Positions 28,595-54,264 are shown, numbered from the stretch's first letter. The stretch: DNA of 60,871 bases from an uncultured Syntrophales bacterium (GCA_964614365.1 CAZTLA010000001.1:1-60871); one strand, 5' to 3'. The notes: generated by a model not told the origin, from the sequence alone. Translations and numbers: made by a program.

Positions 28595-29758
28595 ATGGTT
28601 AGTAAGAAGAAATCACTTGAAACCTTCGCAACGATCGAAAGGATCAATCAACAGCTCCCGGGTATCGACGAGATCAGGGAATGGAAAGCCCGAGGAGGGA
28701 AGGTGGTGGGGTGGTTGTGCGATTATGTTCCCGAGGAATTGATTCATGCGGCAGGGTTGCTGCCGGTCCGGGTGACCGGGCTTCCGAAAGAAATATCATT
28801 AGATGACGCCAACGCCTATCTTTACACCACAACCTGTTCCTTTGTCCGAACCGTTTTTCAACTCGCCTTTGAGAAGAAGTATGATTTTCTGGATGGGTTT
28901 GTGGTGGCCTCCAACTGCGATCACGCACGGAGATTATTTGACGTTTGGGACCGGTACATTCCCACACCGTATCGGTATATCCTCTCCGTGCCTCAAACAA
29001 AATTGCCCCAGGCGCAAAAATTTTATGAGCGAGAACTGGAGGATTTTAAAAAGAGCCTGGAAGCCCATTTTAAAGTCAGCATCCCCGAGGCCAAGATCGG
29101 GGAGTCGATCAAACTTTTTAATCAAACCCGCAGAGGTCTCCGCACATTGAACGAGCTGAGAAAACAGGATTCTCCCAAGATCATGGGGGCTGAGGTCTCC
29201 AAGATCATGAACGCCTGCGAAAAACTGCCTAAAGAGCAGTTTAATCCCCTGCTCGAATCGATTCTTCAGGAGTTGAAAAAGACCGACCGGGAGAACAAGA
29301 CCAACATCCGCCTGATGGTCTCCGGGAGTGTCCTCAATAATCCAAATTATATCGAGTTTATAGAAGATCAGGGGTGCAGTGTGGTCATCGACGATCTTTG
29401 CACCGGGGTCCGTTACTGGTGGGATGAGGTCCCGGAAGATAAACCGCCGATGGAGGCCTTGTCTCATCGTTATCTGACCCGGTTCCCCTGCGCCAGGATG
29501 ACCCCCGGGGAAGATCGCTTTAAACAGGTGGCGGCGCTGGCTAAAGAATACCGGGTGGATGGAGTTATTCAGGAGATGGTGCGCTACTGTACGCCTACCG
29601 CCTGGGAAAGACCGTGGCTTCGAAAGGGCATTGAAGATGAGAATATTCCGGTATTGCAGTTGGAAATAATATATGGAGCGGCCGGGACGGGGCAATTGAA
29701 GATCAGAATCCAGGCCTTCATCGAGATGCTGGGGATGCAGTCAGAAGAGTTTTTTTAG
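28595..29758 (+). CDS. Benzoyl-CoA reductase (class I) / 2-hydroxyacyl-CoA dehydratase family subunit, BzdN/BcrC-like
   Basis: 387 aa. Contains GGKVVGWLCDYVPEELIHAAGLLPVRV, FVVASNCDHARR and DDLCTGVRYW, as in BcrC/BadD/HgdB-type subunits. Confidence 0.8.
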   Translation: MVSKKKSLETFATIERINQQLPGIDEIREWKARGGKVVGWLCDYVPEELIHAAGLLPVRVTGLPKEISLDDANAYLYTTTCSFVRTVFQLAFEKKYDFLDGFVVASNCDHARRLFDVWDRYIPTPYRYILSVPQTKLPQAQKFYERELEDFKKSLEAHFKVSIPEAKIGESIKLFNQTRRGLRTLNELRKQDSPKIMGAEVSKIMNACEKLPKEQFNPLLESILQELKKTDRENKTNIRLMVSGSVLNNPNYIEFIEDQGCSVVIDDLCTGVRYWWDEVPEDKPPMEALSHRYLTRFPCARMTPGEDRFKQVAALAKEYRVDGVIQEMVRYCTPTAWERPWLRKGIEDENIPVLQLEIIYGAAGTGQLKIRIQAFIEMLGMQSEEFF

Positions 29759-29760
29759 TA

Positions 29761-29838
29761 AGTTAGAAATTATGGTTCTTTCGTGTTTCCGGCAAGAAAT
29801 AATTTCGTAAACTTACTTATCCCGTTTATCGGGGTTAG
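29761..29838 (+). repeat. ~78-nt intergenic repeat, copy A: imperfect AT-rich hairpin plus the 22-nt box
   Basis: AGTTAGAAATTAT...CCGGCAAGAAATAATTTCGTAAACTTACTTATCCCGTTTATCGGGGTTAG. By eye it is about 85% identical to the reverse complement of 31192-31267. The box ends 24 nt before the ATG at 29863. Confidence 0.8.
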
Positions 29839-29862
29839 TATAAGATTCCGGGGAGATAGGAC

Positions 29863-31185
29863 ATGAAACCGAAGATTAAGGATATCGAAATCAATCTCGA
29901 GGATTTCAATTCGATGATTGCCTTGTTGGAATCCATTCTTGCGCACCGGAGAAAAAAGCCGACGACCAAGAGCGCCGAACTGTTTTATGCGCATCAGATC
30001 AACTATTACCGGGAGATAAGGGACGCTAAAAAGAACGGGAAGATTTTCGTGCTCCATTCTGCCTTTACTCCCGTGGAAATCCTTTATGCCTTTGATGTTG
30101 TTCCGGCCCACGCCTCTTTCTTAGTGGGCGCCATTGCTCAACTCACCAAGAAGCAGGGGGAATACATGGATGCTTCATCCCGGTTTGGATATCCCTGGGA
30201 GGTATGCCAGGGGCATCGGCCCGTAGTTGGCGGAGCCCTTTTGAAGAAAGCCCCCAAGCCGGACCTCTGCATATCCACTCAGATAGGCTGCACGAATGCA
30301 GCCTCCAGTACCATGGGCCTTGCACGGGCCTACGATGTCCCGATTCATTATATGGACATGAGCTATGGAGGGAAAAGAGCGGTAGATTTTGCCTACTATA
30401 TCGAAAACTTAAGAGAACTGATCAAATTTCTGGAGGGATTCACGGGTAAGATATTTGATTGGGACAGATTGTGTGAGATCGTGGACATCGAGCGGCAGAT
30501 AGCAGAGGTCAACCTCGAGATTATGGAGTTAAGAAAAGCCGTCCCCTCTCCTGTTCGGCATCGCGGGTTTACTCAACAGTACAGTGTGGATATGTTCACG
30601 CCGGGGATTCCGGAGGCATTAAATTTCTTCAAGTGTGTTCGGGATGAGATCAAGGAAAATGTCGAGACCAAGAGGGGGCCGATCGATACCCCGGAACGTT
30701 ATCGAGTCCTTTCGATCTTGATGCCGCCGAATTTTGCCCATAAACTACTGGACTGGATGGAAGAGGAACACGGAGTTTTCTCCGTGGGAGAACCTCACAT
30801 GGCCTACTGGCCGCCCAATCTCAAACTCGACCCGAACCATCCCTTGGAAAGCCTGGCCAATAAGTACTATAACCGGCCAATGTTGGCGCAGTTGATCTGC
30901 CCGGCCATAGACTGCCTCATTCCGGATACCCTAGCGCTTGCCAGGGAGTACAAAGCCGATGGGGCCATCTTCTATGCCAACGTGACCTGTCATACAAGCC
31001 CGGTTCTGATCCGGTCGCTCAAGGATTCACTGCTCGAAACTGCGGGGATTCCCACGTTGGTCCTCGATATGGACGTGGCGGATCCCAACTATACCTCACA
31101 GGAAGAGATGCAAGAAAGAATTGAGACTTTCCTGGATATCATGGACACGTATAAAGAAAAAAGGAAAATCGAGGGAAGAATTTAA
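29863..31185 (+). CDS. Benzoyl-CoA reductase (class I) / 2-hydroxyacyl-CoA dehydratase family subunit, BzdO/BcrB-like
   Basis: 440 aa. Its length and position match the bzdNOPQ order. Contains FVLHSAFTPVEILYAFDVVP, ISTQIGCTNAAS and ANVTCHTSP. Confidence 0.75.
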   Translation: MKPKIKDIEINLEDFNSMIALLESILAHRRKKPTTKSAELFYAHQINYYREIRDAKKNGKIFVLHSAFTPVEILYAFDVVPAHASFLVGAIAQLTKKQGEYMDASSRFGYPWEVCQGHRPVVGGALLKKAPKPDLCISTQIGCTNAASSTMGLARAYDVPIHYMDMSYGGKRAVDFAYYIENLRELIKFLEGFTGKIFDWDRLCEIVDIERQIAEVNLEIMELRKAVPSPVRHRGFTQQYSVDMFTPGIPEALNFFKCVRDEIKENVETKRGPIDTPERYRVLSILMPPNFAHKLLDWMEEEHGVFSVGEPHMAYWPPNLKLDPNHPLESLANKYYNRPMLAQLICPAIDCLIPDTLALAREYKADGAIFYANVTCHTSPVLIRSLKDSLLETAGIPTLVLDMDVADPNYTSQEEMQERIETFLDIMDTYKEKRKIEGRI

Positions 31186-31191
31186 TATCCC

Positions 31192-31267
31192 CTAACCCCG
31201 ATAAACGGGATAAGTGCGTTAACGAAATTATTTTTTGCCGGAAAAGTGCAAAAAATAATTTCTCACT
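31192..31267 (-). repeat. ~76-nt intergenic repeat, copy C (inverted relative to copy A), with a perfect 15-bp AT-rich hairpin
   Basis: CTAACCCCGATAAACGGGATAA at 31192-31213 is the reverse complement of the 22-nt box. The stem arms are GAAATTATTTTTTGC (31224-31238) and GCAAAAAATAATTTC (31248-31262), with a 9-nt loop. Confidence 0.8.
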
Positions 31268-31289
31268 TACGAAAGAGGAAGGGAATGAG

Positions 31290-32075
31290 ATGGCTGTCGC
31301 AGGAATGGATGTCGGGCATCGCAGCATCAAAATGGTGATTTTGGAGGATGGGGAAATTCTCTCCCGGAAGATTATAACTACCGCCGGAGAAACGAACGCC
31401 CTGGCAAAACAGATTTTCGACCAGACAGCAGAGGAGATTGATCTGGATCCTTCCCGCCTCAAATTTATTACGACTACCGGCGGCATGGGGAAGAACGTCG
31501 CCTTCGCCAACCTTTATCGAACCGTGCCCTATTGCCTGGCGAAGGGGGTTTACGCCCTCTTCCCGAAGGCGAGGACGATCATCGATATGGGAGGGGAAAC
31601 CTGCAATGTGATCAAACTGAACGAGAGGGGAGAGATTGAAGACACCCAGAGTAACGATAAGTGTGCCGCCGGAACGGGGATCTTTTTTGAGGCCATGGCC
31701 AAGCTTCTCGGCACATCGCTGGATCACATGGGGAGACTGGCAACCCAGGGAGACATCCAGTTTGAGATCAGTTCGATGTGTGTCGTGTTTGCCGAACAGG
31801 AGGTGATCTCCCACTGTCATGAGAATCCGGATATTTCCGCAGAGGCCTTGGCGGCCGGAATCCACCTCTCCATTGCCGAACGCGTGGCAGGGCTTGCGAA
31901 ACGTTTGGGGATCACGGAAGAAATTGTCCTAACCGGCGGGGTTGCCAAAAACAGGGGTTTTGTCAAATTCCTCTCGCAGAGGATTCATGCTCTTCCGAAG
32001 GTCCCCGAAGACCCTCAAATCATAGCGGCTTACGGAGCTGCGTTGATCAGTCAAGAGCGGATAAAAACTCTATAA
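31290..32075 (+). CDS. BadF/BadG/BcrA/BcrD/HgdC-family ATPase (electron-activating subunit), copy 1
   Basis: 261 aa with an acetate/sugar-kinase fold. Contains GMDVGHRSIK, DMGGE, NDKCAAGTG and SSMCVVFAEQE (the two cluster-bridging Cys), and LTGGVAKN. Confidence 0.85.
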   Translation: MAVAGMDVGHRSIKMVILEDGEILSRKIITTAGETNALAKQIFDQTAEEIDLDPSRLKFITTTGGMGKNVAFANLYRTVPYCLAKGVYALFPKARTIIDMGGETCNVIKLNERGEIEDTQSNDKCAAGTGIFFEAMAKLLGTSLDHMGRLATQGDIQFEISSMCVVFAEQEVISHCHENPDISAEALAAGIHLSIAERVAGLAKRLGITEEIVLTGGVAKNRGFVKFLSQRIHALPKVPEDPQIIAAYGAALISQERIKTL

Positions 32076-32101
32076 TTCCAGAGGGACAAAAAGGGGCGGT
32101 T

Positions 32102-32890
32102 ATGTATTTTGCAGGAATTGACCTTGGCTCGAGGAAATCAAAGATTGCTCTATTTAAAGAGGATGAATTGATCAAGGAATATGTAGGTGAAACAGGACTC
32201 GGAGCGGCCAGAACGGCAGAGATGATTATGAGCCTCGCCCTTGCAGACACAGGCTTAAGGATCGAGGACTTCCAGTCCATTGTGGCCACGGGATATGGTC
32301 GGGTGGTCGTCCCTTTTGCTCATAGCCATGTGAGCGATATCCTTGCTCATGCCATGGGAGCCTTTTGGTATTTCCCTTCCGCTCGCACGGTTCTCGATCT
32401 CGGGGGACAGGATTGTAAAGCCATCAATGTAGATGAAAGGGGAAGGCTGACCGGATTCGTAATGAATGATAAATGCGCGTCGGGAAACGGCCGATTTTTA
32501 GAGACCATGGCCGATCACTTGGAAATCCCGATTGAAAAGACCGGAGATATTTCCCTCGAAGCACAGAAACCCATAATATTCAGCACGATCTGTGCGGTCT
32601 TTGCCAACTCCGAGGCCATGGCCATGGTCCGGAAGGGAATTCCCCTGGCGGATATCCTGGCCGGGATTCACCATATCATTGCCGTTCAGTGTGAAAAGAT
32701 GCTGGAAATGCTTTCGCTGGAAGAGGATCTGGTGATGTCGGGCGGGGTTTCAAAAAATATCGGCGTGGTAAATATGGTTGCCAAGAGGCTGGGGATAACA
32801 CCCAAGATCCCTGCCGACCCGCAGATGGTTGGGGCCGTGGGCGCTGCTGTCGTTGCCCGCAAGAAATATCATGCAGGAAAATGTATGTAA
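32102..32890 (+). CDS. BadF/BadG/BcrA/BcrD/HgdC-family ATPase, copy 2
   Basis: 262 aa. Contains GIDLGSRKSK, DLGGQD, NDKCASGNGRFLE, STICAVFANSE and MSGGVSKN. Confidence 0.85.
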   Translation: MYFAGIDLGSRKSKIALFKEDELIKEYVGETGLGAARTAEMIMSLALADTGLRIEDFQSIVATGYGRVVVPFAHSHVSDILAHAMGAFWYFPSARTVLDLGGQDCKAINVDERGRLTGFVMNDKCASGNGRFLETMADHLEIPIEKTGDISLEAQKPIIFSTICAVFANSEAMAMVRKGIPLADILAGIHHIIAVQCEKMLEMLSLEEDLVMSGGVSKNIGVVNMVAKRLGITPKIPADPQMVGAVGAAVVARKKYHAGKCM

Positions 32891-32950
32891 GGAGTGAGGG
32901 GGCGATCCTACGGAAATACCTCGAGTAAATTAGAGAAGGAGATAGCGGAT

Positions 32951-34210
32951 ATGGAAGGAAGAAAAAATCTGATCGAAAACTGCAAAGTTCTTGACTTCAG
33001 CACTGAATTGGGATTTCTCTGCGGGAAGATCCTGGGCGATTTGGGCGCGGACGTCATAAAGGTGGAACCTCCCGGAGGTGACCCCGCCCGAAAGATGGGA
33101 CCTTTTTATCAGGATATTCCCCACCCTGAGAAAAGCCTCTACTGGCTCGCCTACAACAATAATAAAAGAAGCATGACCCTGAATATTGAAACGGCAGACG
33201 GCCGTGAAATACTGAAGAAACTCCTCATGTCGACGGATATTATTATTGAATCATTTCCGCCGGGATATATGGAGCAACTTGGGTTGGGGTTTTCGGAACT
33301 CAGCCGGATGACAAAAGAAAAAATTATCATGACCTCCATCAGCCCTTTTGGCCAGGAAGGGCCCTATAAAAACTACAAAGCCACGGACCTCGGAATTATG
33401 GCCATGAGCGGCTGTATGTCTCTTTTAGGAGAGCCTGACCGTCCTCCCCTGCGCACCAGTATTCCCGTCTCCTATATGTGGACGGGTTCTTATGCGGCAC
33501 TGGGAACGCTGATGGCCTACTTCCACTGTCGAACGACGGGCAGGGGACAACATGTGGATGTTTCGGCCCAGGCAAGCGCAGCCTGGTCGGCGGATACGGC
33601 TCCTTTATACTGGGAAGCCGACGGCACGCTGACCAAACGGGTCGGCAACGCCGTTCCCGGCCGTAGTATTCACGGTGCTGCCATGAAAGCAGCCTATCCC
33701 TGTAAGGATGGGTACATCTGCTGGCTCATCTACGGAGCAAGGGCCGGAGGGATAACCAATAAGGAGACCATGAAATGGATGGAAGAAAAGGGGATAACAT
33801 CTGACTGGATAAAAGCCCAGGATTGGGACAAATTCGATCCCGCTCTGGCAACGCAGGAAGATTTTAATCATATCATGGAGCCTGTTAGTCGTTTGCTTCA
33901 AGGGCTAACCAAAGCGGAATTTCTCGAAGAAGCGGTGAAGAGAAGGATCATGGGTTACCCCGTGTCCGATGCCAAGGATATCATAGAAAGCCCCCAACTC
34001 CGCGCCAGAGAAGTATGGCAAAATATCGAACATCCGGAGCTTTCCGCTGAGATTACCTATCCCGGACCTTGGGCAAAATTTTCCGAATCTTCCTGCGGAA
34101 TTTCTCGGCGAGCTCCTCTCATCGGCGAGCATAACGATGAAATTTACACCCAGGGACTGGGGATATCCGCGGAGGAATTAACGGTACTAAAACAGGCAGG
34201 AGTGATCTGA
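32951..34210 (+). CDS. Family III CoA-transferase, first of an adjacent pair
   Basis: Contains KVLDFSTELGFLCGKILGDLGADVIKVEPPGGD and IIIESFPPGYMEQLGLGF. I placed the start at ATG 32951 (MEGRKNL...). Confidence 0.85.
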   Translation: MEGRKNLIENCKVLDFSTELGFLCGKILGDLGADVIKVEPPGGDPARKMGPFYQDIPHPEKSLYWLAYNNNKRSMTLNIETADGREILKKLLMSTDIIIESFPPGYMEQLGLGFSELSRMTKEKIIMTSISPFGQEGPYKNYKATDLGIMAMSGCMSLLGEPDRPPLRTSIPVSYMWTGSYAALGTLMAYFHCRTTGRGQHVDVSAQASAAWSADTAPLYWEADGTLTKRVGNAVPGRSIHGAAMKAAYPCKDGYICWLIYGARAGGITNKETMKWMEEKGITSDWIKAQDWDKFDPALATQEDFNHIMEPVSRLLQGLTKAEFLEEAVKRRIMGYPVSDAKDIIESPQLRAREVWQNIEHPELSAEITYPGPWAKFSESSCGISRRAPLIGEHNDEIYTQGLGISAEELTVLKQAGVI

Positions 34211-34232
34211 ACGGAAAAGGAGATGTAAGATC

Positions 34233-35447
34233 ATGGGAAAAGGAATATTTGAAGGCGTAAAAATTCTTGAGTTCGGACAGATTGTCGCCGGCCCCCTTAT
34301 TTCGACCTACATGGCCGACTATGGAGCAGAGATCATTCACGTTGAATCTCACACACGGCCCGACCAGTACCGGTTTTATCCCCCCTTCAAAGATAATAAG
34401 CCAGGAATAAACCGGGGCTTCGATTTTGCCGTTTACAGCCATAATAAATATGGAATTACCCTCAACCTTCGCCATCCCAAAGGGATCGAAGTCGCCAAAC
34501 GGCTGGTAAAAGACTGGGCCAATGTGGTCCTTGAAAATTTCACGCCGGGTGTGATGAAAAGACAGGGATTGGGATATGATGAACTGAAAAAGATCAAACC
34601 CGACATCATTATGCTCAGCACCTGTAATCTTGGGCAAACAGGTCCCCACGCCAATCATCCCGGTATGGGCTCTCACCTCACTCATTTCAGCGGATTTACG
34701 AATCTCAGCGGATGGCCTGACCGTGACCCTTTAATTCTTTACGGGCCTTACATTGACTTCATCGGGGTCGTCTATGGTACGATTGCCCTGGTTTCAGCGC
34801 TTGAGTTCCGTCGCCGGACAGGGAAAGGACAGCTCCTGGACATCGCCCAACTCGAAGGGGGCATCCAATTCTTGGTCCCCACTTTGCTTGAATACGTCGT
34901 TAATGGACGGATTCAAAGAAGAAAAGGTAATCGTTGCGATTATGCGGCCCCTCATGGAGCGTTCCCGTGCCTTGGGGAGGACCGCTGGTGTGTCATCGCT
35001 GTTTTTACGGACGCAGAGTGGGAAAAGTTATGTCAGGTGATGGGCAATCCAGCCTGGACAAAAGATCCCAAATTCACCACGCTTCTCGAAAGAAAGAAAA
35101 ACGAAGATGAGCTGGAAAGATTGATCGGTGAGTGGACATCAAAACGGACTGCGGAAGAGGTCATGGACGCCATCCAAGCCGTGGGAGTGGAAGCTGTAGT
35201 TGTCAAGAATACGAAGGAAATGTATGAGGATGAACACCTGCATCGTTACTTCTGGGCCGAAATGGTCCATCCGGAGATAGGAAAGTACCACATCCAGTTG
35301 CCTCCCTACAGGCTCTCGGAGGCGCCTCCCCAGTTGCGGATGTCCAGTCCGCTCATCGGAGAACATAATGAATACGTTTACCGGGAGCTGGCGGGCTTTT
35401 CCAAGGATGAATACGAAGAACTGCAAAGAGATGGGGTCTTTGCATAG
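34233..35447 (+). CDS. Family III CoA-transferase, second of the pair
   Basis: Contains KILEFGQIVAGPLISTYMADYGAEIIHVE and VVLENFTPGVMKRQGLGYD. It starts 22 nt after the previous gene. Confidence 0.85.
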   Translation: MGKGIFEGVKILEFGQIVAGPLISTYMADYGAEIIHVESHTRPDQYRFYPPFKDNKPGINRGFDFAVYSHNKYGITLNLRHPKGIEVAKRLVKDWANVVLENFTPGVMKRQGLGYDELKKIKPDIIMLSTCNLGQTGPHANHPGMGSHLTHFSGFTNLSGWPDRDPLILYGPYIDFIGVVYGTIALVSALEFRRRTGKGQLLDIAQLEGGIQFLVPTLLEYVVNGRIQRRKGNRCDYAAPHGAFPCLGEDRWCVIAVFTDAEWEKLCQVMGNPAWTKDPKFTTLLERKKNEDELERLIGEWTSKRTAEEVMDAIQAVGVEAVVVKNTKEMYEDEHLHRYFWAEMVHPEIGKYHIQLPPYRLSEAPPQLRMSSPLIGEHNEYVYRELAGFSKDEYEELQRDGVFA

Positions 35448-35449: not shown

Positions 35450-37453
35450 ATGAGATACGCAGAGACAGGGTTTAATTTAGAAATTGATCTATCACGGGGA
35501 AACATTGAGAAGGTAGAAACGGACCCGGCATTAACCAAACTTCACCTTGGGGGCCTCGGCACTAACGCCAAGATATTATGGGACAGGGTCCCCCCTGAAG
35601 TCGAACCCTTTTCTCCCGATAATCTGCTCATATTCGGCACCGGTCTTTTATGTTGCACACCTGCTCCTTCTGCTAATCGTACTATTGTTACCACCATTTC
35701 TCCTCAGACTTTGCTTATGGCATATTCAATGATGGGGGGTTTTTTTGGACCGGAGTTGAAAAAAGCCGGTTACGACAAAATAGTAATTCGCGGTAAATCT
35801 CCCCGTCTCGTTTATTTGTGGATAAACAATGACAAAGTAGAAATACGTGATGCCTCTCATTTACAGGGTAAGGGCGGCAATGAAACGGCAGAACTTCTCC
35901 GACAGGAGTTGCGAGAGCCGGAAGCCCAGATCGCTGCTATCGGCCTGGCGGGTGAAAACAGGGTCTATACGGCTTCCATCGAGCAAGGCAAGTCTAGTGC
36001 CAGCCGACAAGGGGTGGGCGCCGTTATGGGAGACAAGGGATTAAAGGCAATCGTTGTTCGGGGAACAAAGGATATCCATATTGCCCGACCGGCCGAATTT
36101 ATGGAGATGTGCAACGAAGTCCTGAGCTTCATAAAACACCGATTGCAAAATCCAATTAAACTACCGGATGGCATGCCGATTATTTTAGGCTATCTGGGGA
36201 TACAAGAGATGGCGATAGATGATGAGGAGTGGCATACCACCAATTTCGCCTGGGGGAATGCCCGCCATCGCAGAAAAGATTTTTGGACGAAGGAAACCGA
36301 AGAGAGGTGGAAGGAGACACAGGAAAAAGTCGTCAAGCGGTTGATAGGTTGCTATAACTGCCCGATTAGCTGCGGCGGATCCGTTTCCTACCCCGGACTT
36401 CGGACCTACATGATGAAATGTTACTCGAAACTTACCTATACCATGGCGGCCATGTCGGACCTGGATTTTGGTTTTAGAATCGCTCAGCGCGCTACGGAGT
36501 ACGGCGTGGACGGATTCTCAACCCCGCAGGTTATTGCCTTTGCCCTTGAGCTGTATGAGGCCGGCATTTTGACCGACCAGGATATGCCGGGAATGCCATC
36601 CGATAACGAGGGAAGATTTTTCTGGTTGCTCGACCGGATTGTCCGGAGGGAAGGGATTGGAGATGTTTTAGCCAATGGCACCCATTGGGCGGCCCAACAG
36701 ATCGGTAAGGGCGCAGAAGCCTATGCTCATAATAACATCAAGAAACATGAACAGCTGCCCCTCAAGCTGGGAATGCTGAATCCCATTTATTTCCTGATGT
36801 ACTGTACCGGCGAGAAGATAAACATCACCCAGATCGAAGGCCAGTTCCCCCAGGCTCCCCATACCGGCAGAGAGGAAAGAGAGGAGTTTGTAAAGGATTG
36901 GATTCAGGTTCCCCATGAGAGATTTAAAGAATATTTTGTAAATTGGGAGCCCGGGACTTTCCCGCATAATCCGCCGCCGGAAGCGGTTTGCGACATCGTA
37001 GACTGGCAGGAGGCCATGCATTACCTTGATGACGCGACCGGGCTCTGCGCTGCGTCGTCATCATTTATCTTGAAGCCCCCCTATCATATACACAACTTAC
37101 CCCGTATAATCTCCTGCGCGACGGGGATGGATATTGATGAAGCCGGACTATGGGAAATAACCAGGAGGAATCGAACCTTAGTGAGAGCCATTAATGTAAG
37201 AAGGGGGCTCAGGAGAAAAGATGAGAAGCCTCCCGAGGACCATTGGAAGAAGAGATTCCCCGAGCTTGAAGCCAAGCTCTTGGACGAGTATTACAAATTC
37301 AAGGGGTGGAACAGTCAGGGTATTCCTACAAAGGAGTTTTTACACAGCTTAGGTCTGGATTACATCAGCGATGACCTCGTAAAGAGGGGGATATTGACAG
37401 ATGGTGAAGGGACTGCTTCTCATGATACTTCGGCCGGAAAAGAAGAGAAATAG
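35450..37453 (+). CDS. bamB: Tungsten-pterin AOR-family enzyme, BamB-type (active-site subunit of class II benzoyl-CoA reductase)
   Basis: 667 aa. Contains MRYAETGFNLEIDLSRGNIEKVETDP, GGLGTNAKILWDRVPPEVEPFSP, CYNCPISCGG, HNNIKKHEQLPLKLGMLNPIYFLMYCTGEKINITQIEGQFPQAP and YYKFKGWNSQGIPTKE. As far as I recall these closely match Geobacter BamB. They differ clearly from the generic AOR at 51685. Confidence 0.85.
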   Translation: MRYAETGFNLEIDLSRGNIEKVETDPALTKLHLGGLGTNAKILWDRVPPEVEPFSPDNLLIFGTGLLCCTPAPSANRTIVTTISPQTLLMAYSMMGGFFGPELKKAGYDKIVIRGKSPRLVYLWINNDKVEIRDASHLQGKGGNETAELLRQELREPEAQIAAIGLAGENRVYTASIEQGKSSASRQGVGAVMGDKGLKAIVVRGTKDIHIARPAEFMEMCNEVLSFIKHRLQNPIKLPDGMPIILGYLGIQEMAIDDEEWHTTNFAWGNARHRRKDFWTKETEERWKETQEKVVKRLIGCYNCPISCGGSVSYPGLRTYMMKCYSKLTYTMAAMSDLDFGFRIAQRATEYGVDGFSTPQVIAFALELYEAGILTDQDMPGMPSDNEGRFFWLLDRIVRREGIGDVLANGTHWAAQQIGKGAEAYAHNNIKKHEQLPLKLGMLNPIYFLMYCTGEKINITQIEGQFPQAPHTGREEREEFVKDWIQVPHERFKEYFVNWEPGTFPHNPPPEAVCDIVDWQEAMHYLDDATGLCAASSSFILKPPYHIHNLPRIISCATGMDIDEAGLWEITRRNRTLVRAINVRRGLRRKDEKPPEDHWKKRFPELEAKLLDEYYKFKGWNSQGIPTKEFLHSLGLDYISDDLVKRGILTDGEGTASHDTSAGKEEK

Positions 37454-37473
37454 GGTGGAGGGACTGAACGGTC

Positions 37474-38013
37474 ATGGGGGAGAAAAAAAAGAAATTAGTT
37501 AAAACGATAAAAATTGACGCTGATAAATGCAGCGGTTGCCGGGCCTGCGAGGTAATCTGCTCCGCCTTTCACGCTACGCCAAAATATAGCAGTAATAATT
37601 CAAGGCCTCGTATCCGGGTGATTCATGAACCGCTCAAAGACAAATATGTTCCTGTGTACGCAGGCGAGTATACGCCGGCCGAATGTATGGGCAGAAACAA
37701 ATACATCATGAACGGAAAGGAATACGGCGAGTGCGACTTCTGCAGGGCTTCCTGCCCGTCCAGAAATATTTTCAAAGAACCGGATTCCGGTCTCCCGCTG
37801 AAATGCGATATGTGTGAAGGCGAAGAAGAGCCCTTGTGCGTTACGTGGTGCTTAGTCGATGCCTTGACGTACGAAGAACGGGAAGAGGAAGAAGAAGAGG
37901 GAGAAGAGAAAAAAGAGGAGATGGAAACCGGATTGGAATCGATGGTAGACAAATATGGATTGCAGAAGGTAATGAATACCGTTGCTCGAATGTCGATGTC
38001 AAAGAAGGGCTAA
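37474..38013 (+). CDS. bamC: BamC-like [4Fe-4S] cluster protein
   Basis: 179 aa. Cys motifs are CSGCRACEVIC, CDFCRASCP and CDMCEGEEEPLCVTWC. A Glu-rich tract (EEREEEEEEGEEKKEE) follows. It starts 20 nt after the bamB-like gene. Confidence 0.75.
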   Translation: MGEKKKKLVKTIKIDADKCSGCRACEVICSAFHATPKYSSNNSRPRIRVIHEPLKDKYVPVYAGEYTPAECMGRNKYIMNGKEYGECDFCRASCPSRNIFKEPDSGLPLKCDMCEGEEEPLCVTWCLVDALTYEEREEEEEEGEEKKEEMETGLESMVDKYGLQKVMNTVARMSMSKKG

Positions 38014-38024
38014 AAAGGTTCAAG

Positions 38025-38798
38025 ATGATAACCGCAGGGATAGATTGTGGAGCAAAGAGCACAAAAACGGTCATCATGAGGGATGGCAAGATCATTGGGA
38101 AGGGTTCGGTCTTGACCGGAGTTGACTTGGGCAAGGCAGTGGCGGACTCTCTGGCAATGGCCCTGCGGGCGGCAGGCATCGGCCGTGGCGACGTGCAGAA
38201 GGTCGGCGGCACCGGCTCGGGCAAGAAGACGATTACTGTTATGGATACGGAAGTGAACGACATCAAGGCAATAGCCAAGGCGGCGCATTACTTTTTCCCC
38301 AACGCGCGGACGGTGACGGACGTGGGTGCGGAAGAGGGTCGGGTAGTCAAGGTTGACGAGTGGGGCGGCGTGCTTGATTTCGCGATTAATGAGAGATGCG
38401 CGGCGGGCGCGGGGGCCTTTATCGAGGCGATGGGCCGCGCCCTGGAGGTGAAGCTGGAAGATATGGGACCATTGGCGTTGCAGTCCGACAAGATTGTCCC
38501 GATGAACGCCCAGTGCGCGATTTTTGCGGAGTCGGAAGTGGTAGGCCTGATCCATGCGAAGACGAAGCTGCAGGATATCAGCAAGGCGATCCACGACGCG
38601 ATGGCCGGCCGGATCGTGTCAATGATCCGCCGGGTGGGGGTGAACGAAGACGTGGTCATGATCGGCGGCGTGGGCTGCAATCCGGGCGTGGTGGCGGCGC
38701 TAAAGCGTGAGTTGAAGTTGGGAGCGCTTTTTGTTCCTGATGAGCCGGAGTTCGGGGCGGCGGTGGGCGCAGCGCTCGTGGCGGCGGAAGATGGTTAG
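38025..38798 (+). CDS. BadF/BadG/BcrA/BcrD/HgdC-family ATPase, copy 3
   Basis: Contains MITAGIDCGAKSTK, DVGAEE, NERCAAGAGAFIE, NAQCAIFAESE and IGGVGCNPG. The start ATG at 38025 lies 11 nt after the bamC-like stop. The longer ORF start at 37836 overlaps bamC. Confidence 0.85.
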   Translation: MITAGIDCGAKSTKTVIMRDGKIIGKGSVLTGVDLGKAVADSLAMALRAAGIGRGDVQKVGGTGSGKKTITVMDTEVNDIKAIAKAAHYFFPNARTVTDVGAEEGRVVKVDEWGGVLDFAINERCAAGAGAFIEAMGRALEVKLEDMGPLALQSDKIVPMNAQCAIFAESEVVGLIHAKTKLQDISKAIHDAMAGRIVSMIRRVGVNEDVVMIGGVGCNPGVVAALKRELKLGALFVPDEPEFGAAVGAALVAAEDG

Positions 38799-38834
38799 CA
38801 GACTTCCGGGTATTTATTACGAGGAAAAAGGAAG

Positions 38835-39722
38835 ATGGCGGAAGCGAAGAAGCAGGAATTCTGGAGATGGACGGAGTCCAACTGGAAGAATCCTGATATT
38901 GACTGGCAGCAGGCGCAGTATATTACCTGTGGTATAGATGTGGGTTCGGTGAGTTCACAGGCGGTGATAATGGCGGATGGCGAGGTTTTTGTTTACGGGA
39001 ACATGCGTACGGGGTCAGATAGTCCGAATAGCGCTCTCAATGCTTTGGCTTTTGCGCTGGAGAAGACGGACATGCCGAATGACCGCCTCGACTATTGCAT
39101 CGGCACCGGTTATGGCCGGGTGAATGTGCCCTTTGCCGATCGTTCAATTACGGAAATAGCCTGTCATGCCCGTGGGGCTAATTACATCTATGGTCCCCAG
39201 GTGAGGACGGTCCTGGACGTGGGCGGTCAGGATATCAAGGCAATCCAGTGCGATGAGAAGGGGAAGGTGACGAACTTTGTGATGAACGACAAGTGCGCCG
39301 CCGGGACTGGTCGCGGCATGGAGGTTTTTGCCGATATGCTGGGCATATCGATCACCGACGTGGGAGATCGTTCGTTCCAAGTGAAGGCGGAGCCGGAGGC
39401 GGTGTCGAGTACCTGTGTGGTTTACGCGAAGTCGGAGGCGACGGGCCTGTTGCGCAAGGGGTGGACGGCGGAAGAAGTTTTGGCCGCCTACTGTCGTGCT
39501 ATGGCCGAGCGTATTTATTCACTCGTGAGGCGCGTCGGGGTGGTGCCGGAGTTCGCGGTTACGGGTGGTATGGCAAAGAACCGGGGCGTGATGGATCGTT
39601 TGATGCCTATGATGGGCCTGGAGTGGCTGAAGACGAAGTGGGACGCTCAGATCGCTGGAGCCGCGGGGGCGGCCTTGTTTGGCCATGCCCTCTGCAAACA
39701 GGGTAAAGGCAAACAAAAGTGA
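38835..39722 (+). CDS. BadF/BadG/BcrA/BcrD/HgdC-family ATPase, copy 4, with an N-terminal extension
   Basis: 295 aa. Contains a ~30-aa N-terminal extension, then CGIDVGSVSSQ, DVGGQD, NDKCAAGTGRGME, SSTCVVYAKSE and TGGMAKN. Confidence 0.85.
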   Translation: MAEAKKQEFWRWTESNWKNPDIDWQQAQYITCGIDVGSVSSQAVIMADGEVFVYGNMRTGSDSPNSALNALAFALEKTDMPNDRLDYCIGTGYGRVNVPFADRSITEIACHARGANYIYGPQVRTVLDVGGQDIKAIQCDEKGKVTNFVMNDKCAAGTGRGMEVFADMLGISITDVGDRSFQVKAEPEAVSSTCVVYAKSEATGLLRKGWTAEEVLAAYCRAMAERIYSLVRRVGVVPEFAVTGGMAKNRGVMDRLMPMMGLEWLKTKWDAQIAGAAGAALFGHALCKQGKGKQK

Positions 39723-39805
39723 ACCTCTCACGGGGAGCCGCGGGCATCTTACTTACAAACAAATGCGATTGAACAGGCCTCCTCTCCCCTGTGTGGAATC
39801 GTGTA

Positions 39806-39972
39806 ATTCCATTTCTAATTCTTTAGTGCATGAATAATCCATTGCCAAGCAACTATCGAACGGATACGATTTCGATCATTTTCCATATCGCGCAATGCAT
39901 CCGCAAGGTGATCTTCGAGAGCATCAAGGCTGATGTGCGGATAGTATATCACTTATGAATTAGAAATGGAAT
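39806..39972. repeat. 16-bp perfect inverted repeat (ATTCCATTTCTAATTC / GAATTAGAAATGGAAT) flanking a 45-codon minus-strand ORF in the convergent intergenic region
   Basis: The arms lie at 39806-39821 and 39957-39972. The enclosed ORF (39815-39952, GTG start) reads VIYYPHISLDALEDHLADALRDMENDRNRIRSIVAWQWIIHALKN. I recognise no family for it. Confidence 0.4.
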
Positions 39973-40036
39973 AAAAGGGGGGACATCTCTCAATCCTGGT
40001 AAACGATTACGCAAGCCCTGCTCCAAAAGCTGCTCC

Positions 40037-41059
40037 CTATTTAAAAAGGATATCCTTAAGTTTTGAAAGCATCGTATTGTCCAGCTTGAATAGGGAGGCC
40101 ACCGACTTTTCCAGTTCCGCGGCGGTGACAGGCGACATCTCCAGCTTGACCTTCTCCGCTTCATCAAGGAATTCCTTGTCTTTTAAAGTTTCCGTAAAAG
40201 CCCTGGTAAGGATTTGTACCTGTTCCTTGGGCGTGCCGGGCGGCAGAACGAAGGGCCGGTTAAAGACACTGGCGTTATGGATACCCACTTCAATCAACTC
40301 GCGGGCCTCTGCGGTCTTGGCATAGCTGATGGCCAGGGGGACATTGGGGAGATCGGGAAAAGGTTCCGGAACCGTCTGGAGAACTACCACCACGTCGCCG
40401 CTTTCCAGAGACTTGCGCCACGTAGAACGCATGGAGGTCCACCCCCAGGAGGCGCCGGCAAGTTCGCCCTGTTCCACGGCCAGACGGATGTCAGCCGTAC
40501 CTTTATAGCCGGAAACCAATTGGATCGGAAGCCCCAACGCCGCCCTCAGTAGGCGTATGACGTTATCCGAAGCAGCGCCGGGTCCTGTCCCGCCCATTTT
40601 TACCGGTGTCTTTGCGGCCATCCATTTTTCCATGCTGGTAATGCCGCTCTTTTTTGAAAAGGCATAGGCGCATTCTTCCTTGGCGGCAGCGCCCAGGTAA
40701 ACTAATTTTCGTGCGTCAAATTCAATTCCAGGCTGTTGCAATACCTGCTTAAAGAAGAGGCCGCCCTCAAAGTGTGCGACGGTAAGCCCGTCCGGTTTGG
40801 CAACATTATACAGGTAGTTGGCAGAGATCAGACTTCCCGCACCGATCATGTTTTCCACAAGAACGGTCGGTTTTCCCGGTATATGCTTCCCGATATGGCG
40901 GGAGATTGCCCGGGCATAGGTATCGAAGCCGCCACCAGCAGCATAACCAACTACAACGCGGATGGTCTTACCTTCGTAAAATGGCGCCGCTGCAACTGTA
41001 GCGGCGGTTATAAGAAAGAAAACCAGAAGAACACCCGCCGGTAAAAAATACTTTTTCAT
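40037..41059 (-). CDS. TTT-type (TctC/Bug family) substrate-binding protein, orphan
   Basis: Has a signal peptide (MKKYFLPAGVLLVFFLITAATVAA), then GKTIRVVVGYAAGGGFDTYAR...VLVENMIGAGSLI...AKPDGLT. I placed the start at the internal ATG 41059, after an SD. Confidence 0.7.
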   Translation of the reverse strand: MKKYFLPAGVLLVFFLITAATVAAAPFYEGKTIRVVVGYAAGGGFDTYARAISRHIGKHIPGKPTVLVENMIGAGSLISANYLYNVAKPDGLTVAHFEGGLFFKQVLQQPGIEFDARKLVYLGAAAKEECAYAFSKKSGITSMEKWMAAKTPVKMGGTGPGAASDNVIRLLRAALGLPIQLVSGYKGTADIRLAVEQGELAGASWGWTSMRSTWRKSLESGDVVVVLQTVPEPFPDLPNVPLAISYAKTAEARELIEVGIHNASVFNRPFVLPPGTPKEQVQILTRAFTETLKDKEFLDEAEKVKLEMSPVTAAELEKSVASLFKLDNTMLSKLKDILFK

Positions 41060-41139
41060 ATTCTTTCCCTCCGTATAGTAAAATACATCCCCGTTTAAGG
41101 TCGTTGACGAAATTACGGAAACCCACCGGGGCAAACCTG

Positions 41140-41898: not shown

Positions 41899-41943
41899 AA
41901 CGTTCTGCCTCCCTTTAAACAGAGTAGAAATGGAATCAGGCGA

Positions 41944-42732: not shown

Positions 42733-42768
42733 CGCTTCGTACTCCCTCTATCCATATCCCGTCAAATC

Positions 42769-43770: not shown

Positions 43771-43781
43771 GATCTCTCCTT

Positions 43782-44783: not shown

Positions 44784-44861
44784 GACCTCTCCCTCCGTTT
44801 CATTAACCCCTTGATTAACCTCTCCCCCTTACCAACGAGCCCGGGGCAATCGTTTACCGTC

Positions 44862-45962: not shown

Positions 45963-45986
45963 TCTTGTCCCTCCAAGTGGAAAACA

Positions 45987-46994: not shown

Positions 46995-47006
46995 AGTTTC
47001 CCTCCT

Positions 47007-47966: not shown

Positions 47967-47987
47967 AGGTATCCCTCCTTTTTCAAG

Positions 47988-50496: not shown

Positions 50497-50563
50497 TCTT
50501 CCCTCCTCATAAAGAAGTATGCTAACCGTGTCAGGCAAGCACAAACATTTTTCACTGATGAAA

Positions 50564-51526: not shown

Positions 51527-51684
51527 AAGGGTCCCTCCTCTAAATGAACTGCATGAAATCCCCCGCAATGTCTTCGGATCTGCCTCCGTCCGGTTGATTG
51601 GCGTTGAGTAGCCCGGTTTCTCCCGATATACGGTTTGATGCTTGTTTCCTCCGTTTACCGCCTGGCTTCCCAAAGAAGATCCTA

Positions 51685-53640: not shown

Positions 53641-53673
53641 CAATACATCCTCCTCTTCACAAACGTTATTTTA

Positions 53674-54204: not shown

Positions 54205-54264
54205 CTCCCATTTGACATGACAGGTTCAAGCTGTTGATTCTCTTTTATGAACAGATCGCATTTT

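What the first reader, a model, noticed from the sequence alone, without database searches (positions are those of the whole stretch)
35450..39722. BamB/BamC-type tungsten aryl-CoA reductase module followed directly by two HgdC/BcrAD-type ATPases instead of BamDEFGHI
Seen in sequence:
- The 667-aa ORF at 35450 carries long blocks (MRYAETG..., GGLGTNAKILWDRVPPEVEPFSP, CYNCPISCGG, HNNIKKHEQLPLKLGMLNPIYFLMYCTGEKINITQIEGQFPQAP). I recall these as characteristic of BamB, not of generic AORs. The generic AOR at 51685 in this same window lacks them.
- A BamC-like three-cluster Fe-S protein follows 20 nt downstream.
- Two ATPases of the BadF/BadG/BcrA/BcrD/HgdC family follow 11 nt and then 36 nt further on.
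- Both ATPases keep the two Cys (NERCAAGAG/NAQCAIFAESE and NDKCAAGTG/SSTCVVYAKSE) that ligate the subunit-bridging [4Fe-4S] cluster.
- I see no HdrA-like, NuoEF-like or other BamD-I-like gene anywhere in the 61 kb.

Established knowledge: described class II benzoyl-CoA reductases are ATP-independent BamBCDEFGHI complexes, proposed to drive ring reduction by electron bifurcation. ATP-coupled electron activation by this ATPase family is known only with BcrBC/HgdAB-type catalytic partners.

Inference: this may be a chimeric, ATP-driven tungsten-dependent aryl-CoA reductase, with a class II active site and a class I energy-coupling module. I am not aware that such an enzyme has been described.
Basis: partly seen in the sequence, partly recalled or inferred. 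Interest (0 to 1): 0.88.

Follow-up and report, generated by a model that had tools for sequence, protein, structure and literature searches.

The report
BamBC reductase genes abutting BzdPQ ATPases
Genes for the tungsten catalytic core of the ATP-independent benzoyl-CoA reductase are followed directly by the ATP-driven electron-activating pair of the other reductase class, a real and inherited gene order that could encode an undescribed hybrid enzyme, though gene order alone cannot show this.

Summary
35450-37453 is a true BamB: 1072 bits and 69.5% identity to G. metallireducens BamB, with Cys322, His260 and the Fe-S cysteines conserved. 37474-38013 is a true BamC with 12 Cys. 38025-38798 and 38835-39722 are BzdP/BzdQ-type ATPases that keep the cluster cysteines. 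ATPase4 passes the NCBIfam BzdQ cut-off. The gaps are 20, 11 and 36 nt. The window holds no BamD-I, BzdNO, Fd or BzdV homologue.

The gene order is not an assembly artefact. Four other metagenome assemblies from a sister species (86-89% nt identity) repeat it, with the same 11-nt spacer and a BzdM-like ferredoxin after ATPase4. All four genes are under purifying selection (dN/dS 0.05-0.17).

The order is rare and derived. None of the 160 closest other BamB loci shows it, and nearly all informative ones have bamD after bamC. Related lineages carry bamB-I or bamB-F followed by bzdPQ-Fd-oxidoreductase, so loss of bamD-I would produce it. Stand-alone bamBC loci also exist, and the rest of this genome is unseen.

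- Two separate half-systems with partners encoded elsewhere: about 0.45.
- Direct ATPase-to-BamC electron delivery, the novel reading: about 0.3.

I found no published description of such a hybrid. It can be tested directly.

The parts
35450..37453 (+). bamB: tungsten-bis-metallopterin catalytic subunit of class II benzoyl-CoA reductase
   Evidence: AFOR_N/AFOR_C. 1071.7 bits, full-length, to 4Z3W_A. 69.5% identity; Cys322, His260 and Cys299/302/306/534 conserved. dN/dS 0.05 against L089/L174.
37474..38013 (+). bamC: electron-transfer subunit with three [4Fe-4S] clusters
   Evidence: 267.5 bits to 4Z3W_E. 12 Cys. dN/dS 0.17. Clade-specific changes N20S, I57K, D85G, D98N.
38014..38024 (+). 11-nt bamC|ATPase junction (AAAGGTTCAAG); homology to other bamC loci ends here and homology to bzdP loci begins
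   Evidence: Same spacer length in L088, L089 and L174. blastn: bamC homology with L171-L173 ends at 38015-38016; ATPase homology with L087 starts at 38022. GC3 jumps from 54 to 75 here.
38025..38798 (+). ATPase3: BzdP-type subunit of the ATP-dependent electron-activating heterodimer
   Evidence: PF01869; TIGR00241 198 bits, above the 125 cut-off. 81% identical to the ATPase after bamI in L003 and 73-75% to the one in canonical bzdNOPQ loci. Cys in NERC and NAQC. dN/dS 0.10-0.13.
38835..39722 (+). ATPase4: BzdQ orthologue
   Evidence: TIGR03192 417 bits, above the 380.2 cut-off. Best PDB match MbdQ 9GAI_D. 89% identical to L003/L087/L089 and 83-86% to canonical L001/L005. dN/dS 0.12.
39723..40036 (.). 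Non-coding stretch where the sister species carries a 96-aa BzdM-like ferredoxin gene; holds a 23-nt inverted repeat (39806-39828 / 39950-39972)
   Evidence: Ferredoxin present in L088, L089 and L090 right after ATPase4. No Fd homologue in the window. Inverted repeat.
32894..35447 (+). Two family III CoA-transferase genes directly upstream of bamB (context, same operon)
   Evidence: PF02515. Same order CoAT1-CoAT2-bamB in L174, 90-94% aa identity. bamB starts 2 nt after the CoAT2 stop.
28595..32890 (+). Divergent BcrBC/HgdAB-family pair (28595-29758, 29863-31185) with its own two ATPases (31290-32075, 32102-32890); the only possible HGD-D-type partner in the window
   Evidence: PF06050 twice and PF01869 twice. 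All NCBIfam equivalog scores below cut-off. 32%/23% identity to canonical BzdN/O. ATPases 1/2 are 32-38% identical to ATPases 3/4.

Best explanation
This is a genuine, vertically inherited mosaic operon in one narrow lineage whose closest ATPase relatives are annotated as Syntrophales MAGs.

Shown:
- A bona fide, strongly constrained bamBC pair sits at the end of an aromatic-acid catabolic operon. That operon also holds CoA-transferases, beta-oxidation-like genes and glutaryl-CoA-branch genes.
- The bamBC pair abuts a bzdPQ block, the Azoarcus-type ATP-dependent electron activator, which has a distinct, higher GC3.

Inferred origin:
- The bamD-I genes that follow bamC almost everywhere else were lost from an ancestral arrangement like those in relatives: bamB-I-bzdPQ-Fd-oxidoreductase, or bamB-F-bzdPQ-Fd-oxidoreductase.

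Inferred function, my marginally preferred reading:
- The two pairs are halves of two separate reductase systems.
- BamBC reduces benzoyl-CoA using a BamDEF(GHI) bifurcation core encoded elsewhere in the genome, as stand-alone bamBC loci must.
- BzdPQ serves a BzdNO/HGD-D-type catalytic dimer encoded elsewhere.
- The adjacency then reflects catabolic-island clustering and co-regulation, not a physical complex.
For: Identity of the parts.

Derived and rare order:
- In 80 GTDB-representative loci and 80 JGI metagenome loci holding the closest BamB homologues, every locus with enough sequence after bamC has bamD there; two have bamE directly.
- None has an ATPase after bamC.

Plausible precursors:
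- L002-L004 and L087: bamC-D-fdhD-E-F-G-H-I-ATPase257-ATPase295-Fd96-841 aa.
- L176-L179: bamB-C-D-E-F-ATPase-ATPase-Fd-838 aa.
- L175, with the same upstream operon frame as the window and BamB 84% identical, has bamD after bamC.

A recombination joint lies exactly at 38014-38024, with a GC3 jump from 54 to 75.

bamBC can exist without neighbouring bamD-I or ATPases: L171/L172, the closest BamB outgroup at 86%. Multiple bam copies per genome are common (L015, L030, L068, L086, L100).

The ATPases look canonical:
- ATPase4 passes the BzdQ equivalog cut-off.
- It is 83-86% identical to BzdQ in bzdNOPQ loci L001/L005. The L003-type is 90% identical, the same distance as L001 to L005.

The bzdPQ-Fd-oxidoreductase block is variably present next to bamF in genomes 92% identical (L176 against L106). 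It therefore behaves as an accessory block.
Against: - This reading needs two unseen assumptions: a BamDEF(GHI) set and a BzdNO pair elsewhere in the genome. Neither could be checked.
- bzdPQ is separated from bzdNO and placed beside bam genes in at least four different arrangements: after bamI, after bamF, after bamC, and divergent from bamB in L049. Described class I reductase genes sit in single clusters (established knowledge), so this split is odd.
- The only HGD-D pair in the window has its own ATPase pair.
- All four genes are under purifying selection, with BamB at omega 0.05, and the gaps are operonic at 11-36 nt.
- The sister species keeps bamBC-bzdPQ-Fd as a compact five-gene unit.
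- The ATPases and BamC of this lineage show modest extra divergence. A few clade-specific substitutions lie near the cluster cysteines or in the first BamC cluster motif.
- BzdPQ is thought to dock only transiently on its partner (PMC11971306), which makes partner switching plausible.
Confidence: 0.45

Rival explanations
1. Hybrid ATP-driven tungsten benzoyl-CoA reductase. Reduced ferredoxin (the 96-aa BzdM-like protein in the sister species, or another ferredoxin here) reduces the [4Fe-4S] cluster bridging ATPase3/4. ATP hydrolysis lowers its potential. The electron passes to the distal cluster of BamC, through its three clusters, to the BamB [4Fe-4S] and the W-cofactor, which reduces benzoyl-CoA to the 1,5-dienoyl-CoA. 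The ATPase pair would replace the BamDEFGHI bifurcation machinery at a stoichiometric cost of 2 ATP per ring.
For: - Tight co-directional spacing of 20/11/36 nt with no promoter or terminator signal in the gaps.
- The order and the 11-nt spacer are kept in a second species at dS 0.4-0.66, with purifying selection on all four genes.
- That species adds the ferredoxin directly after ATPase4, giving a self-sufficient donor-activator-wire-catalyst set.
- There is no BamD-I and no canonical BzdNO in 61 kb.
- bzdPQ-Fd blocks are recurrently linked to bam clusters without bzdNO.
- The BamC cluster chain is built to carry very low-potential electrons from BamE (bioRxiv 10.64898/2026.04.10.717634).
- BzdPQ probably docks only transiently (PMC11971306).
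- Substitutions in this lineage that the L003-type sequences lack: L149V and E185A next to the ATPase4 cluster cysteines. BamC substitutions rare in other BamC sequences: N20S, I57K, D85G, D98N.
Against: - There is no physical or biochemical evidence.
- The order is found in only two species-level lineages and can be explained by a single deletion.
- The ATPases are 83-90% identical to canonical BzdQ, including the BzdQ-specific N-terminal extension.
- BamC is unrelated to the known BcrBC/HgdAB/double-cubane partners.
- Stand-alone bamBC exists in the closest outgroup.
- The ferredoxin gene is missing in the window itself.
- ATP-coupled ring reduction is regarded as too costly for energy-limited strict anaerobes.
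- The substitution and rate signals lie within the range seen in canonical pairs.
Confidence: 0.25
2. ATP-dependent reductive activator or repair module. As HgdC does for 2-hydroxyacyl-CoA dehydratases, the BzdPQ-like pair would inject a low-potential electron into BamBC (or BamDEF in the relatives) only occasionally. This would re-reduce an oxidatively inactivated W/Fe-S centre or prime the bifurcating complex. It would explain why the block sits next to complete (bamB-I), partial (bamB-F) and minimal (bamBC) sets, and why ATP cost would be tolerable for strict anaerobes.
For: - The same bzdPQ-Fd(-oxidoreductase) block follows bamI, bamF or bamC in different lineages, without bzdNO.
- The block is variably present between close relatives, as expected for an accessory helper.
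- Catalytic rather than stoichiometric ATP use is the established mode for the HgdC branch of this ATPase family (established knowledge).
Against: - The proteins are BzdP/BzdQ orthologues, that is, of the stoichiometric heterodimeric type.
- No need for such activation has been reported for BamBC or the BCRII complex.
- In the window this would still require BamD-I elsewhere.
- The idea is untested.
Confidence: 0.1
3. ATPase3/4 work with the divergent HGD-D pair at 28595-31185, either as a second activator or together with ATPase1/2. BamBC would then be an unrelated passenger between them.
For: - All lie in the same co-directional operon.
- HGDa is the only BzdN-like protein in the window: 32% identity, best PDB match BzdN 8S02_B.
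- The HGD-ATPase1/2-CoAT-bamBC-ATPase3 order is also kept in L174.
Against: - That pair already has its own heterodimeric ATPases immediately downstream.
- ATPases 3/4 are only 32-38% identical to ATPases 1/2 and have a different origin (GC3 and closest relatives).
- In relatives the same ATPases occur with no such HGD-D pair nearby.
Confidence: 0.08

Closest known systems
Class II benzoyl-CoA reductase Bam[(BC)2DEFGHI]2 of Geobacter metallireducens / Desulfosarcina cetonica
   Same: BamB and BamC are clear orthologues (1072 and 267 bits to 4Z3W chains A and E). The W-ligand Cys, the proton-donor His and all Fe-S cysteines are kept. The genes sit in an aromatic-acid/benzoyl-CoA catabolic operon.
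   Different: bamD, E, F, G, H and I (the HdrABC-like and HydABC-like bifurcation modules) are missing from the position after bamC and from the whole 61-kb contig. Two BcrAD-family ATPase genes occupy that position.
Class I benzoyl-CoA reductase, Azoarcus/Aromatoleum type (BzdNOPQ with ferredoxin BzdM and BzdV)
   Same: ATPase4 meets the BzdQ equivalog model. ATPase3 is the orthologue of the 257-aa partner in bzdNOPQ-Fd-oxidoreductase loci (L001, L005). Each subunit has two Cys for the bridging [4Fe-4S]. The sister species has the BzdM-like ferredoxin directly downstream.
   Different: No BzdN/BzdO precedes the ATPases. BamB/BamC, from an unrelated protein family, stand in their place. The ferredoxin and the 840-aa oxidoreductase are absent from the window.
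bamB-I (or bamB-F) + bzdPQ-Fd-oxidoreductase clusters in uncultured Syntrophales/Desulfobacterota (L002-L004, L087, L176-L179, L058; seen here, not found described in the literature searched)
   Same: Same ATPase orthologues (76-89% for ATPase4), same orientation downstream of bam genes, no bzdNO in view, and in the L003 type the same GC3 excess of the ATPase genes.
   Different: Those clusters keep the bifurcation genes between bamC and the ATPases. The window lineage has none, so BamC abuts the ATPase directly.
HgdC/HadI-type activators with 2-hydroxyacyl-CoA dehydratases, and activases of double-cubane cluster proteins
   Same: Same ASKHA ATPase family with a subunit-bridging [4Fe-4S]. ATPase3's best PDB match is the HadI activator 4EHT_A. 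Docking on the partner is transient.
   Different: Those activators are homodimers acting on HgdAB-fold partners. Here a heterodimer stands beside an AOR-family enzyme and its ferredoxin-like subunit.

Membership tests
Class II benzoyl-CoA reductase (BamB-I) | Catalytic subunit of the AOR/WOR family within the BamB clade | tested here: met
   AFOR_N + AFOR_C. 1071.7 bits, end-to-end, to 4Z3W_A against 220 bits to the next AOR. 73-95% identity to 160+ BamB loci that are followed by bamC-bamD.
Class II benzoyl-CoA reductase (BamB-I) | W-ligand Cys322, His260 and four Cys of the BamB [4Fe-4S] (G. metallireducens numbering, roles recalled from the 4Z3W paper) | tested here: met
   All are conserved in the pairwise alignment.
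Class II benzoyl-CoA reductase (BamB-I) | BamC partner with three [4Fe-4S] clusters encoded next to bamB | tested here: met
   267.5 bits to 4Z3W_E. 12 Cys. 20-nt gap.
Class II benzoyl-CoA reductase (BamB-I) | BamDEF (HdrABC/MvhD-like) and BamGHI (HydABC-like) bifurcation modules | tested here: not met
   There are no homologues in the 60,871-bp window. The rest of the genome could not be examined.
Class II benzoyl-CoA reductase (BamB-I) | ATP-independent benzoyl-CoA reduction / dienoyl-CoA oxidation activity | not testable with these tools
   This needs enzyme assays.
Class I benzoyl-CoA reductase, Bzd type (BzdNOPQ) | BzdQ-type ATPase subunit | tested here: met
   ATPase4 scores 417 bits against TIGR03192, cut-off 380.2.
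Class I benzoyl-CoA reductase, Bzd type (BzdNOPQ) | Second, different ATPase subunit (BzdP) forming a heterodimer with a bridging [4Fe-4S] (two Cys per subunit) | tested here: met
   ATPase3 has PF01869 and passes TIGR00241. It is 73-81% identical to the 257-aa ATPase preceding BzdQ in L001, L005 and L003. The Cys motifs are present in both. Heterodimer formation itself was not tested.
Class I benzoyl-CoA reductase, Bzd type (BzdNOPQ) | BzdN/BzdO catalytic subunits (HGD-D fold) encoded with the ATPases | tested here: not met
   There is no canonical BzdN/O in the window. The only HGD-D pair (28595-31185) is 32%/23% identical, scores below all NCBIfam cut-offs, and has its own ATPases.
Class I benzoyl-CoA reductase, Bzd type (BzdNOPQ) | Dedicated ferredoxin (BzdM) downstream | tested here: not met
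   It is absent from the window. It is present directly after ATPase4 in the sister species, L088/L089/L090.
Proposed hybrid (ATPase-driven BamBC) | Physical or electron-transfer contact between the ATPase bridging cluster and BamC | not testable with these tools
   No multimer prediction or biochemistry was available. Substitution and rate analyses were inconclusive.
Proposed hybrid (ATPase-driven BamBC) | Conserved bamBC-ATPase adjacency beyond one lineage | tested here: not met
   Direct adjacency occurs only in the window and the L088/L089/L174 species. None of the 160 other BamB loci has it. A looser linkage, with the ATPases after bamI or bamF, recurs in other lineages.

The most novel reading that the evidence does not exclude
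BamBC here, and possibly the Bam enzymes of the related bamB-I/bamB-F + bzdPQ-Fd clusters, receives ATP-activated electrons from a BzdPQ-type heterodimer. This would be a third energy-coupling solution for enzymatic Birch reduction: a class II tungsten active site driven by a class I ATP motor. It would also be the first AOR/WOR-family partner for the BcrAD/HgdC ATPase family.
Probability: 0.3. Interest if true: 0.92.

Novelty: new variant of a known kind. Interest (0 to 1): 0.68.

Why it matters
Benzoyl-CoA reduction is the key step of anaerobic aromatic degradation. The field divides it into two classes: ATP-driven Fe-S enzymes and ATP-independent tungsten enzymes driven by bifurcation. A 2026 preprint from the Boll laboratory states that ATP coupling does not fit the energy budget of strict anaerobes.

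If a tungsten core were wired to the ATP motor, three things would follow:
- That division would break.
- The low-potential modules would be shown to be interchangeable.
- A four- or five-protein system would become available for forward-direction tungsten Birch chemistry, in place of a one-megadalton complex.

Even if the hybrid is wrong, one observation remains unexplained. bzdPQ-ferredoxin-oxidoreductase blocks recur beside bam clusters without bzdNO. This matters for annotating class I versus class II capacity in metagenomes, where a bzdQ or bcrA hit is often read as evidence of a complete class I enzyme.

Tried and rejected
1. Assembly chimera: rejected. The same junction occurs in five assemblies from different samples and pipelines.

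2. Generic AOR rather than BamB: rejected.

3. Decaying remnant genes: rejected. dN/dS is 0.05-0.17.

4. Phthalate pathway context, on the idea that the UbiD at 47988-49457 is phthaloyl-CoA decarboxylase: not supported. It scores only 57 bits to PCD structures, and the best match is the uncharacterised UbiD 7PDA. The substrate remains unknown.

5. Counting BzdQ-like against BzdN-like homologues to ask whether most BzdQ lack a BzdN. The top 120 BzdQ hits are all at least 82% identical, while the top 120 BzdN hits fall to 61%. The BzdN search did not even return the query's own protein. The lists are capped, so I do not rely on this.

6. Clade-specific substitutions in ATPase4 and BamC, and the dN(BamC)/dN(BamB) ratio of 2.4 against a canonical median of about 1.3 and range of 0.3-3.2: suggestive at most, and within the background range.

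7. Looking upstream of bamB in the L003-type contig for bzdNO: not possible.

8. A microhomology (AAGAAGG) origin of the junction: noted, but the retained bamC stop codon does not fit a simple crossover, so I make no claim.

9. Multimer structure prediction: the tool predicts only one protein chain per job and accepts only window sequences or proteins returned by the search for homologous proteins, so I did not attempt it.

10. Literature searches for any ATPase-linked BamBC/WOR enzyme found none.

Full report
**Observation**

The + strand from about 17.2 to 39.7 kb is one long co-directional catabolic operon. In order it holds:
- a TetR regulator, enoyl-CoA hydratases, thiolases and an amidohydrolase;
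- a carboxyltransferase, an acyl-CoA dehydrogenase, a CoA-transferase and 3-hydroxyacyl-CoA dehydrogenases;
- a divergent HGD-D pair with two ATPases, then two family III CoA-transferases;
- the four genes of the finding.

The 667-aa product of 35450-37453 aligns end to end with G. metallireducens BamB, PDB 4Z3W_A (1071.7 bits). The next best hit, an ordinary AOR, scores 220 bits. Identity is 69.5%. Cys322, His260 and Cys299/302/306/534 are conserved; their roles are recalled from the structure paper. The second AOR in the window (51685-53643) is only 29% identical.

The 179-aa product of 37474-38013 scores 267.5 bits to BamC, 4Z3W_E, and has 12 cysteines.

ATPase3 starts at the ATG at 38025 and is 257 aa long. 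The longer GTG ORF from 37836 overlaps bamC. ATPase4 is 38835-39722. Both are PF01869. ATPase4 scores 417 bits against the NCBIfam BzdQ equivalog model, above its 380.2 cut-off. Both keep the two cysteines per subunit that bind the bridging cluster. The gaps are 20, 11 and 36 nt, and they contain no promoter- or terminator-like site.

tblastn with BamD-I, the BzdM-like ferredoxin, the 841-aa oxidoreductase and canonical BzdN/O found no homologue in the window. The only hit was the HGD-D pair, at 32%/23% identity to BzdN/O. Pfam scans of the remaining ORFs show transporters, another AOR system, a UbiD enzyme and housekeeping genes, but nothing HdrA- or NuoEF-like.

**Is the order real and inherited?**

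The contig is an NCBI MAG contig. The closest ATPase4 homologues led to independent assemblies with the same order:
- L088 (ENA ERZ27248239);
- L089 (ERZ27300037);
- L174 (JGI 3300033233);
- the fragment L090 (JGI 3300021602).

These are collinear with window 35452-39718 at 86-89% nucleotide identity. L174 also repeats ATPase2, the two CoA-transferases, bamB, bamC and ATPase3. L088 repeats the downstream minus-strand TctC and hydratase genes. L088 and L174 are 99.9% identical, L089 and L090 are identical, and the two groups are 98% identical to each other. The evidence therefore amounts to two species-level lineages, the window and one sister species, seen in five samples.

The bamC-ATPase3 spacer is 11 nt in all of them. 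Between the two lineages dS is 0.4-0.66. dN/dS is 0.05 for BamB, 0.17 for BamC, 0.10-0.13 for ATPase3 and 0.12 for ATPase4. All four genes are maintained by selection.

In the sister species a 96-aa ferredoxin gene follows ATPase4 directly. In the window that position (39723-40036) is non-coding and carries a 23-nt inverted repeat.

**How common is it?**

I fetched the 80 closest BamB loci from GTDB species representatives and the 80 closest from JGI metagenomes (73-84% identity). I then classified their neighbours by tblastn. Every locus with enough sequence after bamC has bamD there; two have bamE. These are usually followed by bamE and bamF, and often by bamG, H and I. None has an ATPase after bamC.

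The nearest BamB relatives outside the window lineage show three contexts:
- L171/L172 (86%): bamBC alone, followed by unrelated genes.
- L175 (84%): the same upstream operon frame as the window (TetR, hydratase, thiolase, amidohydrolase, dehydrogenases), but bamD after bamC.
- Desulfoscipio gibsoniae (82%): canonical bamBCD-fdhD-EF.

The direct adjacency is thus a rare, derived state within an otherwise canonical BamB subclade.

**Where do the ATPases come from?**

ATPase4 homologues occur in four contexts:
1. Canonical bzdN-O-P-Q-ferredoxin(-840-aa oxidoreductase) operons (L001, L005/L006).
2. bamC-D-fdhD-E-F-G-H-I, then the two ATPases, ferredoxin and an 841-aa oxidoreductase, in MAGs annotated as Syntrophales (L002-L004, L087).
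3. bamB-C-D-E-F, then the same four-gene block without bamGHI (L176-L179, and similarly L058).
4. The window type.

In L049 the block lies divergently upstream of bamB. No bzdNO is visible in types 2-4. One Bacillota contig (L008) has bzdN-bzdO directly upstream of a bamBC of the window's BamB subclade, but the contig ends after bamC.

ATPase4 of the window, the sister species and the type 2 loci are all about 89% identical to one another. They are 83-90% identical to type 1.

Homology of the window to other bamC loci stops at 38015-38016. Homology to the type 2 ATPase genes starts at 38022. GC3 rises there from 54-55 (bamB, bamC) to 75 and 68 (ATPase3, ATPase4). The same excess is seen in type 2 loci.

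The simplest history is that a bzdPQ-Fd-oxidoreductase block was placed downstream of a bam cluster and the intervening bamD-I genes were then lost. The block is variably present even between genomes 92% identical across bamB-F (L176 against L106).

**What does it do?**

Two facts are firm. BamBC is a functional, strongly constrained benzoyl-CoA reductase catalytic module. ATPase3/4 is a functional BzdPQ-type electron activator. Whether one feeds the other is not shown.

For separate systems:
- Stand-alone bamBC loci exist.
- Genomes often carry several bam sets (L015, L030, L068, L086, L100).
- The ATPases look canonical, including the BzdQ N-terminal extension.
- The order can be explained by one deletion that two young lineages inherited.

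For direct coupling:
- The spacing is operonic.
- The sister species has a complete donor-activator-wire-catalyst gene set.
- The bzdPQ block is repeatedly placed beside bam genes and apart from bzdNO.
- The window's only HGD-D pair has its own ATPases.
- BamC's cluster chain carries very low-potential electrons from BamE in the native complex (bioRxiv 10.64898/2026.04.10.717634).

The sequence signals are weak. The ATPases of this lineage are 4-6 percentage points more diverged from canonical ones than the type 2 ATPases are. ATPase4 has L149V and E185A next to its cluster cysteines. BamC has N20S in its first cluster motif plus I57K, D85G and D98N. dN(BamC)/dN(BamB) is 2.4, against a canonical median near 1.3, but that is within the observed range of 0.3-3.2.

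My ratings are:
- separate half-systems: 0.45;
- stoichiometric hybrid: 0.25;
- occasional ATP-dependent reductive activation of Bam enzymes: 0.10;
- service to the upstream HGD-D pair: 0.08;
- something else: the remainder.

**Comparison with known systems, and novelty**

The parts are members of known families. BamB and BamC pass every sequence-level test for class II. ATPase4 and ATPase3 pass the tests for Bzd-type class I activators. As a system the locus fails a defining feature of each class: no BamD-I for class II, and no BzdNO for class I.

No paper in the searchable library describes a BamBC or any tungsten oxidoreductase coupled to a BcrAD/HgdC-type ATPase. A 2026 classification of tungsten oxidoreductases lists no such class (PMC13328260). 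The 2026 BCRII cryo-EM preprint treats ATP coupling and bifurcation as alternative strategies for different organisms.

I therefore file the locus as a new gene-organisation variant of known reductase systems. I give about 0.3 probability that it encodes a new hybrid enzyme.

**Verdict**

- Observation: confirmed.
- Interpretation: partly supported. The parts and the conserved adjacency are right; the functional coupling is untested, and the deletion origin offers a plain alternative.
- Interest: 0.68. A specialist would find the bamBC-bzdPQ-Fd unit and the wider bam + bzdPQ linkage surprising. The hypothesis is directly testable with four or five proteins, and a check of the complete genomes could deflate it quickly.

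Noticed in passing
L002-L004 1-13881; L087 34-8675: In MAGs annotated as Syntrophales, a full bamC-D-fdhD-E(Sec)-F-G-H-I cluster is followed directly by the same two ATPases, a 96-aa ferredoxin and an 841-aa Fer2/NuoG-like + GltD-like oxidoreductase. No bzdNO is in view. The ATPase genes there also have a much higher GC3 (67-70) than the bam genes (39-56).
   Followed up: partly
L176 622-14065 (also L177-L179, L058): A third arrangement: bamB-C-D-E-F without bamGHI, then ATPase-ATPase-ferredoxin-838-aa oxidoreductase. L106 is 92% identical over bamB-F but lacks the block, so the block varies between close relatives.
   Followed up: partly
L008 26-5385 (Bacillota MAG158): Canonical-type bzdN and bzdO (61-62% identical to L001) lie directly upstream of a bamB-bamC pair from the window's BamB subclade (84%/80%). 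The contig ends right after bamC, so what follows is unknown.
   Followed up: no
L171 8752-11323; L172 8738-11156: The closest BamB outgroup (86%) is a stand-alone bamBC pair downstream of MMPL/DUF1302/DUF1329 genes. It is followed by GIY-YIG or transposase genes, with neither bamD nor ATPases.
   Followed up: partly
window 39806-39972: A 23-nt inverted repeat (91% complementary, arms 121 nt apart) encloses most of a 43-aa ORF (39832-39963). It lies exactly where the sister species has the ferredoxin gene. It may be a small insertion or deletion scar or a MITE-like element.
   Followed up: partly
window 28595-35447: A divergent BcrBC/HgdAB-family pair scores below all NCBIfam equivalog cut-offs; the best weak hits are the double-cubane reductase and BzdN models. 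It has its own heterodimeric ATPase pair, followed by two family III CoA-transferase subunits. This may be a second, uncharacterised ATP-dependent acyl/aryl-CoA reductase or dehydratase in the same operon.
   Followed up: partly
window 40037-51673 (- strand): Six TctC-family solute-binding paralogues (five between 40037 and 47966, one at 50564-51673), an SDR, a hydratase, an ornithine-cyclodeaminase-like protein, an amidohydrolase and a UbiD decarboxylase (47988-49457). The UbiD scores 388 bits to PDB 7PDA and only 57 bits to phthaloyl-CoA decarboxylase. This suggests uptake and decarboxylation of an unidentified aromatic di- or tricarboxylate.
   Followed up: partly
window 51685-55545 (- strand): A second, ordinary AOR (652 aa, 29% identical to BamB) with a 176-aa poly-ferredoxin and a 426-aa Fe-S protein, followed by TRAP transporter genes (56771-60797).
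   Followed up: no
window 12001-16000: GC content is 0.62-0.63 here, against about 0.50 in the catabolic operon that starts at about 17.2 kb. There is a compositional boundary near 16-17 kb.
   Followed up: no
window 35450-37453: The exact 667-aa BamB sequence is not on record in the gene-position collection. BamC and both ATPases from this same contig are in the protein collection. The deposited annotation may call this gene differently.
   Followed up: no
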